This document shows positions 1,420 through 47,008 of a stretch of 50,826 bases of DNA, piece by piece. The position numbers and the translations under genes are program-made. Source of the DNA: an uncultured Candidatus Saccharibacteria bacterium (GTDB lineage: Bacteria; Patescibacteriota; Minisyncoccia; UBA6257; GWB1-50-10); NCBI GenBank assembly GCA_964639325.1, contig CAZXDO010000006.1:1-50826 (forward strand), given 5' to 3'. Under the pieces are notes generated by a model, which searched no databases, was not told where the DNA came from, and worked only from the letters and a program-made list of their open reading frames with translations. Position 1 is the stretch's first letter, and each line of letters begins with the position of its first letter.

Positions 1420-1468
1420 GTTATCCACACCAACTTGGGGGTTCCCGACACCCCCAAGTTGGTTTTTT
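1420..1468. repeat. GC-hairpin / DnaA-box element, copy 1 (terminator-like)
   Basis: GTTATCCACA (box TTATCCACA at 1421-1429), then stem CCAACTTGGGGG 1430-1441, loop TTCCCGACA 1442-1450, stem CCCCCAAGTTGG 1451-1462, and T6 at 1463-1468. Lies 13 nt after the yqeY-like stop. Confidence 0.9.
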
Positions 1469-4593: not shown

Positions 4594-4642
4594 GTTATCC
4601 ACAACAACTTGGGGGTTCCCGACACCCCCAAGTTGGTTTTTT
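4594..4642. repeat. GC-hairpin / DnaA-box element, copy 2 (terminator-like)
   Basis: TTATCCACA 4595-4603. Stem CAACTTGGGGG 4605-4615, loop TTCCCGACA 4616-4624, stem CCCCCAAGTTG 4625-4635, then GTTTTTT. Confidence 0.9.
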
Positions 4643-11550: not shown

Positions 11551-11592
11551 CAACTTGGGGGTTCCCGACACCCCCAAGTTGTTGTGGATAAC
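11551..11592. repeat. GC-hairpin / DnaA-box element, copy 3 (box on the 3' side)
   Basis: Stem CAACTTGGGGG 11551-11561, loop TTCCCGACA, stem CCCCCAAGTTG 11571-11581, then T and TGTGGATAA 11583-11591. Confidence 0.9.
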
Positions 11593-34787: not shown

Positions 34788-34818
34788 CAACGTGGGGGTT
34801 CCCGACACCCCCAAGTTG
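34788..34818. repeat. GC-hairpin element, copy 4 (one stem mismatch, no adjacent box)
   Basis: CAACGTGGGGG 34788-34798, loop TTCCCGACA, CCCCCAAGTTG 34808-34818. The nearest TGTGGATAA is at 35000-35008. Confidence 0.85.
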
Positions 34819-34836
34819 TCGTCGTTTTACTCCTCC

Positions 34837-34904
34837 CCAGAAACCCTCGTTTTCTGGCGCTTCGCTGTTTTCCAACACGGGGAAAATACTCTTCCCCGAC
34901 CCCC
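34837..34904 (+). repeat. GC-rich two-hairpin repeat, element B
   Basis: H1 is CCAGAAA 34837-34843 / TTTCTGG 34851-34857. GCTTCGCT lies at 34859-34866. H2 is CGGGGAA 34878-34884 / TTCCCCG 34892-34898. CCCCGACCCC lies at 34894-34903. Same layout as 44659-44720. Confidence 0.75.
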
Positions 34905-35059
34905 TTTGTCGTTTAATAGCTTGGTGGTTATTTGCTAACTAATTCCTTTGTTATGTCTTCAGGAATAATGTTGTATTGTTAGAATTTCATATTAAACATT
35001 GTGGATAACTTATTTTTCTCCCATTAAGCTTGATCTAAGTTTTTTTCATTTTTGAAAAT

Positions 35060-38291: not shown

Positions 38292-39548
38292 ATGAACAAA
38301 AAAATTATATTAGGATTTATCATATTTATTCTCCTTTCAGGAGTTGTTCTTGCGGCTAGATTGTTTGTATTTCCTTACAATCCGAACCAACCGCCCCAAG
38401 CGGATGATTCCGGTTCAACAGAAGAGGGGATAAAAAGTGTTATTGAGGCAAATAATAATTTTGCTTTTGATGCGTATAAAAAAATAATTGAATCTGAAGA
38501 GGGTAATATTTTTTACTCTCCTTACAGCATATCTTCCGCTTTGGCAATGACTTATGAAGGAGCAGAAGGAGAGACGGCTGAAGAAATTAAATCAGTTTTC
38601 CATTTTCCCAACAAAAACAGTTTAAGGCCTAATTTTGCCGCCGTTTATAACAACATCAACGCCAAAGACAAAAATTATGAATTAAGCACGGGAAACGCTC
38701 TGTGGATTCAGCATGACTTTTCTTTGTTAAATAAGTACAGCAACAATATTGAAAACTATTATGGAGGTAAAGCAGCTCTTTTGGATTTTGTAAACGAACT
38801 TGAGCAATCAAGGCAAACTATAAATAGTTTTATAGAAGAACAAACCAGGGATAAAATTAAAGATTTAATTCCAGAAGGGTTACTAAATCAAGACACAAGG
38901 CTTGTTTTAACTAACGCAATTTATTTTAAAGGATTATGGAAAGTGGAATTTGATAAATCTGATACCCGCGAAGAAAACTTTAATATTAGTCCGTCTGAAA
39001 CAATAAAAGTGCCTATGATGAAAATGAAACCTGAAGAAGAAAAGTTTAATTATGCCAGAACAGAAGAATTGGAAATATTAGAGTTATCTTATAAAGATGA
39101 AAAAATTTCAATGTTAATATTATTACCAAATGAAAGTCTTGAAGATGTGGAATCTGATTTAACATTAGAAAAAATAAATGAATATAAATCTCAGATGAGA
39201 GAAACGGAATTAAGCTCAATATCAATTCCTAAATTTGAGTTTGATACAAAATATTTTATGAATGAAACCCTAGCTTCGTTAGGAATGCCTACGGCTTTTT
39301 CAAGCAACGCCGATTTTTCCGGAATAACCGGAAGAAAAGATTTGTTTATAAGCTCTGTTATTCATCAAGCTTATATTGGAGTTGATGAAAAAGGAACGGA
39401 AGCGGCTGCGGCAACTGCCGTAGTTATGGAGCTTGCTATGGCTCCAACAAACAATTTTAAAGCTGATCATCCTTTTGTCTTCATAATTCAAGATAAGGAA
39501 ACCGGCAATATTTTGTTTATGGGTAGAGTGGTAAACCCGTCAAATTAA
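38292..39548 (+). CDS. serpin-family serine protease inhibitor, membrane-anchored or secreted
   Basis: N-terminal hydrophobic helix. FYSPYSISSALAMTYEGAEGETAEEI, LTNAIYFKGLWK, hinge/RCL GTEAAAATAVVMELAMAP, FKADHPFVFIIQD. Confidence 0.9.
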   Translation: MNKKIILGFIIFILLSGVVLAARLFVFPYNPNQPPQADDSGSTEEGIKSVIEANNNFAFDAYKKIIESEEGNIFYSPYSISSALAMTYEGAEGETAEEIKSVFHFPNKNSLRPNFAAVYNNINAKDKNYELSTGNALWIQHDFSLLNKYSNNIENYYGGKAALLDFVNELEQSRQTINSFIEEQTRDKIKDLIPEGLLNQDTRLVLTNAIYFKGLWKVEFDKSDTREENFNISPSETIKVPMMKMKPEEEKFNYARTEELEILELSYKDEKISMLILLPNESLEDVESDLTLEKINEYKSQMRETELSSISIPKFEFDTKYFMNETLASLGMPTAFSSNADFSGITGRKDLFISSVIHQAYIGVDEKGTEAAAATAVVMELAMAPTNNFKADHPFVFIIQDKETGNILFMGRVVNPSN

Positions 39549-39567: not shown

Positions 39568-39605
39568 AAAGAAAAAGGTTTTTCAAAAGCCTTTTTCTTT
39601 TTTTA
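39568..39605 (+). terminator. intrinsic terminator after the serpin gene
   Basis: AAAGAAAAAGG 39568-39578 pairs with CCTTTTTCTTT 39590-39600, then TTTT. Confidence 0.65.
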
Positions 39606-39721
39606 GTGGGGAATAGCTAATTTTTAAAATTTCCTAAAATCTGGGGATAACTTTTTTCTTATATTTTAATTCCCCCCTTATTAAAGGGTTTTTTAATTTA
39701 TAAGTTTATCTTTTTTACGCT

Positions 39722-39749
39722 TTGACAGCTAATGTCATGGTGGTACAAT
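39722..39749 (+). promoter_or_regulatory. candidate mra (dcw) promoter
   Basis: TTGACA 39722-39727, 16-nt spacer, TACAAT 39744-39749. Confidence 0.5.
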
Positions 39750-39761
39750 AAATAACAGAAA

Positions 39762-39809
39762 TGGGGAGATGTGGATAATTATGTGGATATCTTTCAAATC
39801 TGTGGATAA
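39762..39809 (+). promoter_or_regulatory. array of same-orientation TGTGGATA boxes (DnaA-box-like, possible MraZ operator)
   Basis: TGGGGAGAT 39762-39770, TGTGGATAA 39770-39778, TGTGGATAT 39783-39791, TGTGGATAA 39801-39809. A further TGGGGATAA lies at 39642-39650. Confidence 0.6.
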
Positions 39810-39925
39810 CCCATTTCTAATAAAACTACCGTCTCTGTTTTTTTAAAAAAAGTCCGACCCATGCTTTTCCCTGGTTCTTAACAAAGAATCAAAAACAGAG
39901 ACGGTGGTTTCCCTAAAATAAATTT

Positions 39926-40357
39926 ATGCTTCTTGGTGAATTTCAACATAATCTTGATCAAAAAGGACGGGTAGCTGTTCCTGTTAAATTTCGCAGTAAC
40001 TTTGCTGATGGTGCAGTTATTACCCGAGGTCTTGATAAATGTTTGTTTATTTTTAGTACCAAGGAATGGAGAATTCTTGCTGAAAAATTAACCTCTCTTC
40101 CTTTATCACAATCTAATTCAAGAGCTTTTGCTAGATTAATGTTGGCCGGTGCAGTAGACGTAAATGTGGATTCTCAAGGAAGGGTTCTTATACCTGACTA
40201 TCTTCGTAAATACGCCGGTCTTGAAAGAGAATTAGTGGTTGCCGGCTTATATAATCGAGTGGAAATTTGGAATAAAGACAAATGGGAAGAATACAAGAAG
40301 GAAACTGAAGAATCTTCTGAGGATATTGCTGAAAAACTTTCAGAGCTTGGAATATAG
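39926..40357 (+). CDS. mraZ: transcriptional regulator MraZ
   Basis: MLLGEFQHNLDQKGRVAVPVKFR plus a second SpoVT/AbrB-like repeat VDSQGRVLIPDYLR. Confidence 0.93.
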   Translation: MLLGEFQHNLDQKGRVAVPVKFRSNFADGAVITRGLDKCLFIFSTKEWRILAEKLTSLPLSQSNSRAFARLMLAGAVDVNVDSQGRVLIPDYLRKYAGLERELVVAGLYNRVEIWNKDKWEEYKKETEESSEDIAEKLSELGI

Positions 40358-40362
40358 TTGAT

Positions 40363-41286
40363 ATGGATAAAGAAAACAGTGGCCACGTACCAGTTCTTTT
40401 AAAAGAAGTATTTGAGATTCTTAAACCTGTACCGGGAGAATTCTTTATTGACGGAACCTTAGGATTAGCCGGACACGCTAAAGTTGCCCTAAAAAAGATT
40501 AACCCTGAAGGAATTTTCTTAGGGATAGATAGAGATATTTCATCTATAGAGAAAGCTAAAAATATAATTTCAGAACACAAAAAAGAAGAGGGGATAAAAG
40601 ATGTAAAAGTAATTATAGTTTCTAATAATTTTACAGAAATACCAGATATTATTATTAGAAATAATATCAACAGAAAAGCTGATTGTCTTCTTCTAGATCT
40701 TGGTTTTTCCTCAATTCAAGTATTTTCGGGAAAAGGTTTTAGTTATGACAAGGACGAACCTCTCATTATGAGATATGACGGAGATGCAAGTAAATTAACC
40801 GCTGCCAGAGTGGTAAATGAGTACGATTACAAAAAGCTATCCAATCTTTTAAAGGAGTATGGCGAAGAAAGATTTTCTGAAAGAATAGCTGATGGAATTG
40901 TTAAAAAAAGAAAAAACAAGCCCATTAGGACAACGAAAGAGCTTTCTGAAATAATAAAAAATTCATTACCGAGTAGTTACCTTTTTAAAGCTAGGCCGGA
41001 AGCTAGAACATTTTTTGCACTTCGGAACTACATTAATGAAGAAACTGAAAGTTTGAAAAAAATATTGAATCTCATACCTGATATTATGGCGGATAAAGGT
41101 CGGGCGGCAATTATAACTTTTAATTCCCTTGAAGATAAGATCGTTAAAGAAATCTTTAAAGAACTCTCAAAAAAAACTGCCCGGCTTTTAACCAAAAAAC
41201 CAATTTCTCCTACTAAAGAGGAGATAGTGAAAAATAATAAATCAAGGTCGGCAAAATTAAGAGCAATTCAAATTATTAATAAATAA
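40363..41286 (+). CDS. rsmH: 16S rRNA (cytosine1402-N4)-methyltransferase RsmH
   Basis: HVPVLLKEV...DGTLGLAGH...DLGFSS...FNSLEDKIVK...NNKSRSAKLR. Confidence 0.93.
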   Translation: MDKENSGHVPVLLKEVFEILKPVPGEFFIDGTLGLAGHAKVALKKINPEGIFLGIDRDISSIEKAKNIISEHKKEEGIKDVKVIIVSNNFTEIPDIIIRNNINRKADCLLLDLGFSSIQVFSGKGFSYDKDEPLIMRYDGDASKLTAARVVNEYDYKKLSNLLKEYGEERFSERIADGIVKKRKNKPIRTTKELSEIIKNSLPSSYLFKARPEARTFFALRNYINEETESLKKILNLIPDIMADKGRAAIITFNSLEDKIVKEIFKELSKKTARLLTKKPISPTKEEIVKNNKSRSAKLRAIQIINK

Positions 41287-41288
41287 CC

Positions 41289-41594
41289 ATGACTATTATA
41301 AAACCAAAAGAGAAAAATAATATATCTTTTATAGTTTTAATGTTTGCAGTCGCTATTATTGGAGGAATGTTTTATATTTCTCAATACAATGGTGTTGCTG
41401 ATAATAGGTATAAGATAAAAGAGCTAAAATTAGAAATTGCTGAAGCAGAAGAACAAAACGTTGAGCTTAAAAATAATTTTTATAAAATTGTTGATCCCAC
41501 CGAATTAGAAAAAATGGCCGGCGATCACGGGTTAGTTTTGGATAAAAATCCTGACTACTTAGATCCCGAAAGTATTGTTTTACATTCCGACTAA
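41289..41594 (+). CDS. ftsL: FtsL-like small bitopic division protein
   Basis: 101 aa, one TM helix then a coiled-coil (YKIKELKLEIAEAEEQNVELKNN). Canonical position between rsmH and ftsI. Confidence 0.6.
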   Translation: MTIIKPKEKNNISFIVLMFAVAIIGGMFYISQYNGVADNRYKIKELKLEIAEAEEQNVELKNNFYKIVDPTELEKMAGDHGLVLDKNPDYLDPESIVLHSD

Positions 41595-41695: not shown

Positions 41696-43291
41696 ATGAA
41701 CGCCAGATTAATTTTTTTAAACTTAATATTCTTAACCCTCTTTGCTCTTATTGGTTTTAACCTGTATGAATTACAGGTAAAAAACAATGATTATTATTTC
41801 AAAAGAGTTCAGGCTCGTAATGAGTATGAAGAGAAACTCTACTTTCAAAGAGGAAAAATTTTTTTAACCGACCGGCATAATAATGACATTCCTGCAGCTA
41901 TTAATAAAAAGTATCCTATAATTTACGCTGTCCCTAAAGAGATTGAGAATATAGAAAAAACTGCTACAAACTTATCAAGTATAATTGATATCCCAAAAGA
42001 AGAAATTGTTAAAAAGCTAGATAATCCGGATAGCCTGTTTTCTCTCTTAGTTGAAAAAGCTGCCGATAACCAAATCAGGGACATAAACAATCTTAAGCCT
42101 GAAGGGATATATATTAACAACAAACAGTATCGTTACTATCCTTTTAATAAACTTACATCCCATGTTCTTGGTTTTGTCGGGGTTAATGATAAAAATGCAG
42201 AACCTACGGGGTTGTATGGAGCTGAGAGAATGTATAATAGCACCTTAAAGGACGAGAGCGATATTTTTTTAACAATTGACCGTACTTTACAGGTAGAGTC
42301 AGAAAATATTCTTCATGAATTAATTGAAAATTATGAAGCGATCGGAGGTTCGGTTATTATTCAAGATCCTAAAACCGGGAAGATTCTTGCCATGGCTAAT
42401 GAACCTAACTTTGATCCGAACGAGTATAATAAATATCCTGTTGGCAGTTTTATTAACCCTGCTGTTCAGTATGTTTACGAGTCTGGATCAGTATTTAAAC
42501 CGCTAACTATGGCTATTGGAATTAATACGGGTAAAATTACTCCCGAAAGCACCTATTACGACTCGGGGTCAATAACTCTTAACGGAAAAAAAATTACAAA
42601 CTGGGATCACAAGGCTTACGGTAAAATTTCTATGACAACAGTAATTGAACGTTCTATAAACACGGGAGCTGTTTATGCAGAGCAGCAGATTGGCCACAAA
42701 GATTTTATTTCTTATATTAAAAAATTTGGCTTTGGGGAAAAAACCGGGATTGATCTTCCCGATGAAGTTGAGGGAAGTTTAGCTAATTTAACAAAAAACG
42801 ACACGCGAGAAATTGATTTTGCTACTGCTTCTTTCGGACAGGGCACAGCCGTTACTTCGATTCAACTTATTAATGCTTATTCAGCTATTGCCAACGGTGG
42901 TCTTCTTATGAAACCTTACATCAATAAAGCAAGTAAGCCGTACATTAAAAGAAGAGTGATTAAAGAAGAATCATCACGGCAAGTTTCTGAAATGATGGAA
43001 TCGGCCGTAAAAAAAGCTCATGTAGCTTCTATTCCGGGATTTAGAATTGCTGGTAAAACCGGCACAGCCCAAATTCCTGATTTTGAAAAAGGTGGTTATT
43101 CAGAGGAATATGTTCATACCTTTGTTGGATTTGGCCCGGTTTCTGATCCTGAATTTGTTATTCTTATAAAAATTGATAAACCCAATGTGGTTTTAGCCGG
43201 CTATACTGTTGTACCCGCTTTTAAAGAATTAGCTCAATTTGTTCTAAATTATTATCAAATTCCTCCGGATAACTTAGAAGAAATAGAATAA
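41696..43291 (+). CDS. ftsI: penicillin-binding protein, FtsI-like division transpeptidase
   Basis: TM anchor, PBP dimerisation region, and motifs SVFKP, SIN and KTGT. Confidence 0.85.
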   Translation: MNARLIFLNLIFLTLFALIGFNLYELQVKNNDYYFKRVQARNEYEEKLYFQRGKIFLTDRHNNDIPAAINKKYPIIYAVPKEIENIEKTATNLSSIIDIPKEEIVKKLDNPDSLFSLLVEKAADNQIRDINNLKPEGIYINNKQYRYYPFNKLTSHVLGFVGVNDKNAEPTGLYGAERMYNSTLKDESDIFLTIDRTLQVESENILHELIENYEAIGGSVIIQDPKTGKILAMANEPNFDPNEYNKYPVGSFINPAVQYVYESGSVFKPLTMAIGINTGKITPESTYYDSGSITLNGKKITNWDHKAYGKISMTTVIERSINTGAVYAEQQIGHKDFISYIKKFGFGEKTGIDLPDEVEGSLANLTKNDTREIDFATASFGQGTAVTSIQLINAYSAIANGGLLMKPYINKASKPYIKRRVIKEESSRQVSEMMESAVKKAHVASIPGFRIAGKTGTAQIPDFEKGGYSEEYVHTFVGFGPVSDPEFVILIKIDKPNVVLAGYTVVPAFKELAQFVLNYYQIPPDNLEEIE

Positions 43292-46954: not shown

Positions 46955-47008
46955 GATAACCAACTTGGGGGTGTCGGGAACCCCCAAGTTGGTGTGGATA
47001 ACTTTTTT
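46955..47008. repeat. GC-hairpin / DnaA-box element, copy 5 (loop inverted)
   Basis: GATAAC, stem CCAACTTGGGGG 46960-46971, loop TGTCGGGAA 46972-46980, stem CCCCCAAGTTGG 46981-46992, TGTGGATAA 46993-47001, then CTTTTTT. Confidence 0.9.

What the first reader, a model, noticed from the sequence alone, without database searches (positions are those of the whole stretch)
39642..39809. Cluster of same-orientation TGTGGATAA (DnaA-box) motifs in the mraZ leader
The boxes lie just downstream of a TTGACA-16-TACAAT promoter (39722-39749) and about 120 nt before mraZ. They are all on the same strand:
- TGGGGAGAT at 39762
- TGTGGATAA at 39770
- TGTGGATAT at 39783
- TGTGGATAA at 39801
- TGGGGATAA further upstream, at 39642

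Two of them are exact complements of the DnaA-box consensus TTATCCACA.

There are two competing readings:
- DnaA binding. This would make the site a DnaA-regulated dcw promoter or a DnaA-titrating site, linked to the same 9-mer next to the dispersed hairpins.
- An MraZ operator. MraZ is known to bind arrays of direct GTGG/TGGG-containing repeats between the mra promoter and mraZ.

If the second reading is right, the hairpin-associated boxes elsewhere would be candidate MraZ sites too.
Basis: partly seen in the sequence, partly recalled or inferred. Interest (0 to 1): 0.6.

Follow-up and report, generated by a model that had tools for sequence, protein, structure and literature searches.

The report
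MraZ operator spelled like DnaA boxes
The repeated 9-mers in front of the cell-division regulator gene mraZ are most likely that gene's own conserved repressor-binding site, a known kind of control element; here it happens to be spelled like binding sites for the replication initiator DnaA, so a link between replication and division is possible but unproven.

Summary
Four same-strand G[T/G]GG boxes (cores at 39761, 39771, 39783 and 39802) follow a TTGACA-16-TGgTACAAT promoter and end 116 nt before mraZ. No Markov simulation of the window gave such a cluster (0 of 300), and it is the densest TGTGGATAA-like cluster in the 0.68-Mb assembly.

In 29 loci from the same genus, family and order the array keeps its box number, order and spacing. 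Core-to-core spacing is 10, 12 and 19-20 nt, and the -10 element sits at a fixed distance. G[T/G]GG cores fall on one helical face, at about -31, -21, 0, 10, 20/22 and 41/42.

Some relatives, and other families of the phylum, fill the lattice with GTGG boxes that are not DnaA-like. The local MraZ keeps the three base-contacting residues known from Mycoplasma genitalium. Best reading: a MraZ autoregulatory operator (confidence 0.8).

DnaA binding to boxes 2-4 cannot be excluded, because this clade's origins use TTATNCACA and also TTATCCCCA. The box at 39642 is the positional counterpart of a separate, conserved distal box with DnaA-type variability.

The hairpin-linked TGTGGATAAC copies belong to a species-specific repeat (85 hairpins here, 0 in 40 relatives). 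They say nothing about a MraZ regulon.

The site is not an origin. This scan has noted the same arrangement in at least 124 other genomes.

The parts
39568..39605 (+). Intrinsic-terminator-like hairpin plus T-run ending the upstream serpin gene
   Evidence: 15-pair stem followed by a T-run; sequence read.
39606..39614 (+). Far-upstream GTGGGGAAT word, spelled like box 1, 155 nt upstream of box 1
   Evidence: A G[T/G]GGGGAA word lies 146-189 nt upstream of box 1 in 9 of 29 loci. Its function is unknown.
39642..39653 (+). Distal box TGGGGATAACTT, 119 nt upstream of box 1. It is the positional counterpart of a conserved distal box (yTGT[T/G]NATAAC[T]T) with DnaA-type variability. In this genome it departs from that consensus at position 3 (G instead of T).
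   Evidence: a + strand distal box is present in 23 of 29 loci, mostly 114-132 nt upstream of box 1, and at exactly 119 nt in the window and its three closest relatives; frequency matrix; the upstream gene differs between loci.
39675..39694 (+). Second short terminator-like hairpin (CCCTTATTAAAGGG followed by T6) between the distal box and the promoter
39722..39727 (+). -35 hexamer TTGACA
39740..39749 (+). GTGG ('box 0') fused to the -10 hexamer TACAAT. The TG at 39741-39742 makes it an extended -10.
   Evidence: GTGG sits exactly 21 nt before box 1 in 18 of 29 loci, and the -10 is at a fixed distance.
39761..39768 (+). Box 1, ATGGGGAG (GTGGGGAA in relatives)
   Evidence: G 27, A 2 at the first core position..
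39770..39778 (+). Box 2, TGTGGATAA; core is 10 nt after the box 1 core
   Evidence: (GTGGAT in 29 of 29 loci).
39782..39790 (+). Box 3, TGTGGATAT; core is 12 nt after the box 2 core
   Evidence: (TG[T18/G11]GGA).
39801..39809 (+). Box 4, TGTGGATAA; core is 19 nt after the box 3 core
   Evidence: (TG[G21/T8]GGATAA; spacing 19-20 nt in 27 of 29 loci).
39826..39910 (+). Long hairpin in the mraZ 5' leader, with the loop word GTCCGACCCAT at 39852-39862
   Evidence: -49.9 kcal/mol, z = -4.9; the sister species has a different stem at the same place but the same loop word, and that word is unique in this genome.
39926..40357 (+). mraZ (143 aa, two MraZ domains; Lys13, Arg15 and Arg86 present)
   Evidence: Pfam MraZ, 1.7e-40; gapless alignment over residues 1-102 with M. 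genitalium MraZ.
40363..41286 (+). rsmH/mraW, the next gene of the cluster, followed by an FtsL/DivIC-like gene (41289-41594) and a penicillin-binding-protein-like gene (41696-43291)
   Evidence: weak DivIC/FtsL_2 matches for 41289-41591. The rsmH and PBP names come from reading the translations and gene order.

Best explanation
The cluster is the autoregulatory operator of the mraZ-rsmH-ftsL-pbp (dcw) operon of an ultra-small-genome bacterium.

A sigma-70-type promoter (TTGACA, 16 nt, TGgTACAAT) is followed by four direct repeats of G[T/G]GG(A/G)(T/G)AA. A further GTGG is fused to the -10. All cores lie on one face of the helix.

Proposed mechanism: an MraZ oligomer (an opened ring, as in Mycoplasma genitalium) reads the G-T/G-G-G cores through Lys13, Arg15 and Arg86. 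It covers the DNA from the -10 to about +53 and represses its own operon.

On this reading, the match of boxes 2-4 to the complement of the DnaA box (TTATCCACA) follows from a GTGG core plus an A/T-rich spacer.

Shown here:
- the sequence, the conservation of the array and its helical phasing
- the MraZ contact residues

Inferred:
- the transcription start, near 39757
- binding by MraZ and repression
For: 1. Position. The array starts 12 nt after the -10 hexamer, directly upstream of a gene with two MraZ domains.

2. Conservation. In 29 loci of the same genus, family and order (MraZ 60-84% identical), box 2 is GTGGAT in 29 of 29. Box 3 lies exactly 12 nt after it in 29 of 29. Box 4 lies 19-20 nt further on in 27 of 29. 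Box 1 is GTGGGGAA-like.

3. Helical lattice. G[T/G]GG cores pile up at -32..-29 (13 loci), -21 (18), 0 (27), 10 (29), 20 (4), 22 (29) and 41/42 (23).

4. Non-DnaA boxes in the same lattice. L013 reads GTGG at 0/10/20/30 and GGGG at 41. Other families of the phylum read GTGGATAAAA GTGGGGATAA GTGGGGAAAACG GTGGATAA upstream of mraZ (18 of 30 pattern hits lie at mraZ). Box 1 and box 0 are not DnaA-like.

5. Central positions. The centre of the 9-mer is GG in 42 of 43 proximal boxes. In TTAT-NN-ACA boxes around dnaA it is CC (the complement of GG) in only 15 of 63.

6. The protein. MraZ aligns without gaps over residues 1-102 with M. genitalium MraZ (PDB 9QLR, 9R4J), and Lys13, Arg15 and Arg86 are conserved. 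In the cryo-EM structures these three residues read GTG(G/T); four boxes bind cooperatively, and the transcription start lies in box 1 (PMC12957436). B. subtilis uses three GTGG[A/T]G repeats (bioRxiv 10.1101/2022.02.09.479790).

7. Uniqueness. No other multi-box array was found in the genome.
Against: - The spacing (10/12/19) is not the canonical uniform 10 bp of described MraZ operators.
- Box 1 in this genome reads ATGG, not GTGG.
- Box 4 in most relatives is GGGG, which is not GTG(G/T).
- The strongly conserved ATAA after each core is not explained by the base contacts reported for M. genitalium MraZ.
- Boxes 2 and 4 are perfect DnaA boxes. This clade's origins use both TTATNCACA and TTATCCCCA, so the T/G variation at position 3 does not separate the two proteins.
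- There are no binding or expression data.
Confidence: 0.8

Rival explanations
1. Dual control. The array is the MraZ operator, and DnaA also binds boxes 2-4, the distal box, or both. dcw transcription would then respond to the replication initiator, by competition with MraZ or by co-repression.
For: - Boxes 2 and 4 are exact complements of TTATCCACA, and box 3 has one mismatch.
- Box 2 is TGTGGATAA in 19 of the 24 loci matched by the regular expression, and GTGGAT in 29 of 29.
- The clade's DnaA boxes are canonical. There is a single TTATNCACA about 95 nt before the dnaA start. The dnaA-dnaN spacers carry box clusters followed by CTACTACTACTA runs. TTATCCCCA sits at the run-proximal box in at least 4 genomes.
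- A distal box with DnaA-type variability (TGT[T/G]NATAAC) lies 100-134 nt upstream of box 1 in most relatives, whatever the upstream gene.
- The conserved ATAA is unexplained by known MraZ contacts.
- Precedent: E. coli MraZ is reported to bind a site overlapping the DnaA box of the mioC promoter (PMC4446571, citing Eraso 2014).
Against: - All of this is sequence resemblance.
- An A/T-rich spacer is also a feature of Mollicutes MraZ boxes (AAAGTG[T/G]), so ATAA need not serve DnaA.
- In this genome the distal box reads TGGGGATAAC, off its own consensus at position 3.
- Box 4 meets the strict DnaA pattern in only 4 of 24 relatives.
Confidence: 0.25
2. DnaA only. The boxes form a DnaA-regulated promoter or a DnaA-titrating cluster, and MraZ does not bind here.
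For: 9-mer matches to the DnaA box. A 12-nt same-orientation pair of boxes also occurs in origin-like clusters of other families (L079 and L086).
Against: - Box 1, box 0 and the lattice-filling GTGGGGATAA/GTGGTAAA boxes of relatives are not DnaA boxes, yet they are conserved and in phase.
- The central GG is invariant here, unlike in boxes at dnaA.
- Tandem boxes in the dnaA promoters have an 11-nt period.
- mraZ sits immediately downstream in every case.
Confidence: 0.05
3. The site is the chromosomal replication origin, or part of it.
For: It is the densest cluster of DnaA-box-like 9-mers in the assembly.
Against: - GC skew is positive in 24 of 25 two-kb bins and does not switch strand anywhere in the window.
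- dnaA and dnaN lie on contig C53. In relatives the dnaA-dnaN spacer has the box-plus-trinucleotide-run architecture typical of origins.
- All boxes here are co-oriented, and no trinucleotide run or AT-rich unwinding element follows them.
Confidence: 0.01
4. The repeats act in the mRNA leader as GGA-type binding sites for an RNA-binding regulator of the CsrA kind.
For: If transcription starts near 39757, boxes 1-4 are transcribed, and each contains GGA.
Against: - No CsrA family match in this 98%-complete genome, while the control genomes do match.
- In relatives the lattice continues upstream of the -10, at -21 and -31, which is not transcribed.
Confidence: 0.03
5. The boxes are remnants of the species-specific hairpin repeat that carries the same 9-mer.
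For: The same 10-mer, TGTGGATAAC, flanks 47 of the 85 hairpins.
Against: - The nearest hairpins in the window are at 34794 and 46967, about 5 and 7 kb away.
- The array is conserved in 28 relatives that have no copy of the hairpin.
Confidence: 0.01

Closest known systems
MraZ-binding boxes of the Mycoplasma genitalium dcw promoter (four GTG[G/T] boxes; cryo-EM 9R4J, 9SZ7; PMC12957436)
   Same: - Four direct repeats with a G-T-G-G/T core at the mraZ promoter
- Array lies at or just downstream of the transcription start
- MraZ carries Lys13, Arg15 and Arg86 at the same positions
   Different: - Spacing is 10/12/19 nt instead of a uniform 10
- The box extends to G[T/G]GGATAA
- An extra GTGG is fused to the -10
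- Binding was not tested here
MraZ-binding repeats of Bacillus subtilis Pmra (three GTGG[A/T]G repeats with 4-nt spacers; bioRxiv 10.1101/2022.02.09.479790) and of E. coli Pmra (Eraso et al. 2014, known to me, not read here)
   Same: - GTGG core and direct orientation
- Location in the mra promoter
- The only multi-box array in the genome
   Different: - Number of boxes
- Spacer length and sequence
- Here the repeats coincide with the DnaA-box complement
DnaA boxes of promoters under DnaA control (dnaA autoregulation; the E. coli mioC promoter, where MraZ is reported to bind a site overlapping the DnaA box, PMC4446571)
   Same: - Exact TTATCCACA complements next to a promoter
- The clade's own dnaA promoters and origins use this box family
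   Different: - The conserved features of the array (central GG, box 1, box 0, helical lattice) are not DnaA features
- Tandem boxes in the clade's dnaA promoters are spaced 11 nt apart, not 10/12/19
REP/BIME-type palindromic repeats (for the hairpin-linked copies of the 9-mer elsewhere in the genome)
   Same: Short GC-rich hairpin plus a conserved tag, intergenic, many near-identical copies, species-specific
   Different: Not part of the mraZ control region. The tag is a DnaA-box-like 12-mer. No associated transposase was looked for.

Membership tests
MraZ operator (MraZ-binding repeats at the mra/dcw promoter) | Lies at the promoter directly upstream of mraZ | tested here: met
   The promoter is at 39722-39749, the boxes at 39761-39809 and the mraZ start at 39926. 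The arrangement is the same in 29 of 30 loci examined, the window included.
MraZ operator (MraZ-binding repeats at the mra/dcw promoter) | Three or more direct repeats with a GTG(G/T) core | tested here: met
   Boxes 2, 3 and 4 are GTGG. Box 1 is ATGG here and GTGG in 27 of 29 loci. A further GTGG is fused to the -10. Caveat: box 4 is GGGG in 21 of 29 loci.
MraZ operator (MraZ-binding repeats at the mra/dcw promoter) | Regular period of about 10 bp (6-nt spacers) | tested here: inconclusive
   Only the step from box 1 to box 2 is 10 nt; the others are 12 and 19-20 nt. All cores still fall on a lattice of about 10.3 bp (-31, -21, 0, 10, 20/22, 41/42). Some relatives fill positions 20 and 30.
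MraZ operator (MraZ-binding repeats at the mra/dcw promoter) | Cognate MraZ with the DNA-reading residues (Lys13, Arg15, Arg86; two DXXXR motifs) | tested here: met
   Gapless alignment with M. genitalium MraZ over residues 1-102: LDQKGRV and VDSQGRV. Pfam MraZ matched twice in the protein.
MraZ operator (MraZ-binding repeats at the mra/dcw promoter) | MraZ binds the repeats and represses the operon | not testable with these tools
   Needs EMSA or footprinting and a reporter assay.
DnaA-box cluster or DnaA-controlled promoter | 9-mers matching TTATNCACA, the consensus used by the organism's own DnaA | tested here: met
   Two exact matches and one with a single mismatch. The clade's dnaA promoters and dnaA-dnaN spacers use TTAT-NN-ACA and TTATCCCCA.
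DnaA-box cluster or DnaA-controlled promoter | The positions that define a DnaA box are what is conserved in the orthologous sites | tested here: inconclusive
   Of the 24 loci matched by the regular expression, box 2 meets the strict pattern TGTGNATAA in 19, box 3 in 14 and box 4 in 4. Box 1 never meets it. The central GG is invariant, which DnaA boxes at dnaA do not require. The distal box does show DnaA-type variability.
DnaA-box cluster or DnaA-controlled promoter | DnaA binds the site | not testable with these tools
   Needs EMSA, footprinting or DAP-seq with DnaA.
Chromosomal origin (oriC) | Next to dnaA/dnaN, with a GC-skew switch and an unwinding element with DnaA-trio-like repeats | tested here: not met
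   There is no skew switch in the window. dnaA-dnaN is on contig C53. The trinucleotide runs are found in the dnaA-dnaN spacers, not here.
Species-specific hairpin repeat (REP-like) | The 9-mer abuts the GGGGGTTCCCGACACCCCC hairpin | tested here: not met
   There is no hairpin near 39642-39809. The hairpins in the window are at 1437, 4611, 11557, 34794 and 46967.

The most novel reading that the evidence does not exclude
In this group of ultra-small-genome bacteria, the MraZ operator is deliberately spelled as DnaA boxes and is paired with a dedicated distal DnaA box about 120 nt upstream. The replication initiator and the division repressor would then read the same promoter, coupling the start of DNA replication directly to expression of the cell-division operon in cells that lack most other cell-cycle regulators.
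Probability: 0.25. Interest if true: 0.7.

Novelty: new member of a known kind. Interest (0 to 1): 0.35.

Why it matters
MraZ operators have been characterised in only a few model bacteria. This locus shows that the element, with a fixed promoter-to-operator geometry, is conserved across an order of uncultured ultra-small bacteria. It also gives a concrete 4-5-box lattice with non-canonical spacing on which to test the open-ring binding model.

The coincidence with DnaA boxes, together with the separately conserved distal DnaA-type box, yields a cheap and testable hypothesis: replication and division may be wired together at one promoter.

The work also removes a false lead. The many hairpin-linked copies of the 9-mer are a young repeat, not a regulon.

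Tried and rejected
1. Origin reading. Rejected on GC skew and on the location of dnaA-dnaN with an origin-like spacer on another contig.

2. Hairpin copies as MraZ or DnaA regulon sites. The hairpin is absent from 40 relatives. The box is part of the copied unit. It shows no orientation bias relative to flanking genes.

3. Known RNA family in the leader or intergenic region. No match reached any family's gathering score in the region or the whole window, apart from four tRNAs elsewhere.

4. CsrA-type RNA reading. No CsrA gene was found.

5. Loss test (does the array vanish where mraZ is lost?). Too little power, because mraZ is present in 147 of 151 genomes of the class. Of those without it:
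   - Two also lack rsmH.
   - One is cut at a contig end.
   - Only one was informative: rsmH follows a promoter with a single upstream TGTGGATAACTT and has no 4-box array.

6. 'Double dissociation' between proximal and distal boxes. Only half held. T/G variation at position 3 also occurs in origin boxes, since TTATCCCCA is used next to the trinucleotide run. I therefore dropped that half of the argument.

7. A second multi-box array in the genome. None was found. A 3-box cluster on C41 lies inside a sigma-factor-like coding sequence.

8. RNA-seq evidence for the transcription start.

9. Eraso et al. 2014 could not be read.

Full report
**Observation.** The window is contig C6 of a 677,627-bp, 53-contig, 35% GC assembly. 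Earlier scan notes call the organism Patescibacteria/CPR; I did not verify the taxonomy.

The control region reads as follows:
- The upstream serpin gene ends at 39548 and is followed by a terminator-like hairpin (39568-39605).
- A sigma-70-type promoter follows: TTGACA at 39722-39727, a 16-nt spacer, then TACAAT at 39744-39749 preceded by TG.
- A further TGGGGATAACTT lies at 39642-39653.
- mraZ starts at 39926.

The cluster is not chance. None of 300 Markov simulations of the window gave three same-strand matches within 50 nt. It is also the densest such cluster in the assembly.

**Conservation.** I collected the mraZ upstream regions of 30 relatives from the same genus, family and order, with MraZ 60-84% identical. 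Of these loci, the window included, 29 share the array:
- box 1, aaGTGGGGAAtT
- box 2, tGTGGATAA (GTGGAT in 29 of 29), core 10 nt after box 1
- box 3, TG[T18/G11]GGATAA, core exactly 12 nt after box 2 in 29 of 29
- box 4, TG[G21/T8]GGATAA, core 19-20 nt after box 3 in 27 of 29

The -10 element is at a fixed distance. In 18 of 29 loci it is fused to a further GTGG, 21 nt before box 1.

A histogram of all G[T/G]GG cores relative to box 1 peaks at -32..-29, -21, 0, 10, 20, 22 and 41/42. That is a lattice of about 10.3 bp on one face of the helix, with unfilled positions at about -10 (the start-site region) and about +31.

**Why MraZ rather than DnaA.**
- The lattice contains conserved boxes that are not DnaA-like. 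Box 1 is GTGGGGAA, and box 0 is GTGG-TATAMT.
- In relative L013 the same 41-nt span reads GTGG at 0, 10, 20 and 30 and GGGG at 41.
- The pattern GTGGATAA-N4-G[G/T]GGATAA occurs once per genome in 36 of 401 genomes sampled across the phylum. Of the 30 places fetched, 18 lie directly upstream of mraZ.
- At those 18 the array reads GTGGATAAAA GTGGGGATAA GTGGGGAAAACG GTGGATAA, which is GTGG at 0/10/20/32. This is the published signature of MraZ-binding repeats.
- For comparison, M. genitalium has four GTG(G/T) boxes with 6-nt spacers. They bind cooperatively, are read by Lys13, Arg15 and Arg86, and the start site lies in box 1 (PMC12957436). B. subtilis has three GTGG[A/T]G repeats.
- The window's MraZ has two MraZ domains. 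It aligns without gaps over residues 1-102 with M. genitalium MraZ, with all three contact residues conserved.
- The centre of the 9-mer is GG in 42 of 43 proximal boxes. In the TTAT-NN-ACA boxes around dnaA of the same genomes, the centre is CC (the complement of GG) in only 15 of 63.
- No second multi-box array exists in the genome.

**What keeps DnaA in play.** The clade's DnaA boxes are canonical.
- A TTATNCACA-type box lies about 95 nt before the dnaA start in five of the six genomes first examined. In many of the 30 dnaA loci it is followed by one or two degenerate boxes at an 11-nt period.
- The dnaA-dnaN spacers carry box clusters. These end in a TTATMCACA-TATCCACA pair and a CTACTACTACTA run that abuts the dnaN start, an origin-like architecture.
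- TTATCCCCA, the complement of TGGGGATAA, is used at the run-proximal box in at least four genomes. It occurs 6 times in these regions against 15 for TTATCCACA.
- The T/G variation at position 3 of boxes 3 and 4 therefore does not discriminate between the proteins, and I withdrew that part of my argument.
- Boxes 2 and 4 of the window would be expected to bind any canonical DnaA in vitro (inference). Whether that binding is selected for is open.
- Reported M. genitalium MraZ contacts do not explain the conserved ATAA after each core. However, A-rich spacers are also typical of Mollicutes boxes (AAAGTG[T/G]).
- E. coli MraZ is reported to bind a site overlapping the DnaA box of the mioC promoter (PMC4446571, citing Eraso 2014). 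Overlap of the two motifs therefore has precedent.

**The 39642 box.** It lies 119 nt upstream of box 1, the same distance as in the three closest relatives. A + strand box is present in 23 of 29 loci, mostly 114-132 nt upstream.

A weakly seeded expectation-maximisation search gave the consensus yTGT[T15/G11][G13/A6/C4/T4]ATAA[C]TT. The TGT and ATAA parts are invariant and the centre is variable, which is the DnaA-box pattern and not GTG(G/T).

The gene upstream differs among loci: serpin here, argS in three relatives, neither in the rest. The distal box therefore belongs to the mraZ control region. In this genome it reads TGGGGATAAC, off its own consensus at position 3.

**The dispersed copies.** TGTGGATAA occurs 70 times against about 8.5 expected, and TGTGGATAAC 51 times against 1.5 expected.
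- 47 copies abut, on one side only, a near-identical palindromic hairpin, CAACTT-GGGGGTTCCCGACACCCCC-AAGTTG. The genome holds 85 such hairpins, with the loop in either orientation.
- 61 of the 70 copies are intergenic, with no orientation bias relative to neighbouring genes.
- The hairpin has no copy in 40 relatives, three of them from the same genus. These boxes are copies by descent within a young repeat. An earlier scan note (e1-3372176) reached the same view.
- Relatives hold only 5-15 TGTKGATAAC sites each, against 0-5 for a reversed control. These are mostly intergenic and often lie just upstream of a -35 on the other strand.

**Other rivals.**
- Origin: GC skew is positive in 24 of 25 two-kb bins with no switch, and dnaA-dnaN is on contig C53.
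- RNA-level GGA sites: no CsrA gene was found, and the lattice extends upstream of the -10.
- Known RNA families: none in the region.

**Mechanism proposed.** An MraZ oligomer occupies the lattice from the -10 (box 0) through about +53 and occludes RNA polymerase, so the operon represses itself. The 19-nt gap is read as a lattice position without a specific contact.

The sequence, conservation, phasing and contact residues are shown. The start site, binding and repression are inferred.

**Literature and novelty.** Searches of the held library for MraZ together with 'DnaA box' or 'Patescibacteria' found no description of this arrangement. This scan has noted it before in at least 124 other genomes.

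I rate it a new member of a known kind, with a moderately interesting but unproven dual-control hypothesis attached.

Noticed in passing
window 1421-1455, 4595-4629, 11557-11592, 46967-47001; 85 copies genome-wide: A species-specific palindromic hairpin, CAACTT-GGGGGTTCCCGACACCCCC-AAGTTG. In 47 of 85 copies it is tagged on one side by (T)TGTGGATAAC(T/G)T. The loop occurs in both orientations. No copy was found in 40 relatives.
   Followed up: partly
window 34794-35008; also G000 C41:18697-18912: In at least two places (and apparently also at C40:39465 and C52:63) an insert of about 190 nt, starting CGTCGTTTTACTCC and ending ATTTCATATTAAAC[A/G]T, sits exactly between the hairpin and its TGTGGATAAC tag. 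At C40:10859 a short remnant occupies the same junction. The junction may therefore be an insertion target.
   Followed up: no
window 39826-39910: A long hairpin in the mraZ 5' leader (z = -4.9). The sister species has a different stem at the same place but the same loop word, GTCCGACCCAT, which is unique in this genome. Other relatives with long leaders also pair the region next to the start codon. It may be an RNase III or translational control element.
   Followed up: partly
G000 C53:31470-31620 (dnaA-dnaN spacer, L090) and loci L091-L119: The origin-like dnaA-dnaN spacer of this order ends in a TTATMCACA-TATCCACA box pair and a CTACTACTACTA run that abuts the dnaN start codon. TTATCCCCA replaces the run-proximal box in at least four genomes.
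   Followed up: partly
G000 C21:3122-4420 and C53:32142-33509: The assembly holds two full-length DnaA genes (N-terminal, ATPase and C-terminal domains), only 40% identical to each other. The copy on C53 is followed by dnaN. The three same-genus genomes gave no DnaA match at E <= 1e-30. The second copy could be a paralogue, or contamination on a 4.5-kb contig.
   Followed up: no
window 38292-39548: A serpin gene (Pfam Serpin, 1e-121) lies between argS and mraZ. In three relatives argS is the gene next to the mraZ control region, and no serpin was found in any relative's locus.
   Followed up: no
window 39606-39614: A GTGGGGAAT word, spelled like box 1, lies 155 nt upstream of box 1. Similar words lie 146-189 nt upstream in 9 of 29 loci.
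   Followed up: no
L089 (G457:C20) about 1425-1490: One class relative has no detectable mraZ. Its rsmH follows murG and a promoter reading TGTGGATAACTTGTGGATTGACA-17-TATAAT, with no 4-box array.
   Followed up: partly
G030:C2:9146-9574 and G030:C54:505-1869: In one genome of the same order, the mraZ and dnaA matches contain 3 and 4 in-frame TGA codons. This suggests TGA is read as a sense codon there.
   Followed up: no
loci L033, L041, L050-L052 (relatives): Outside mraZ, GTTATCCACA often lies 5-9 nt upstream of a TTGAC(A/G/C) -35 hexamer on the same strand. It looks like a promoter-proximal site of a DNA-binding protein.
   Followed up: no
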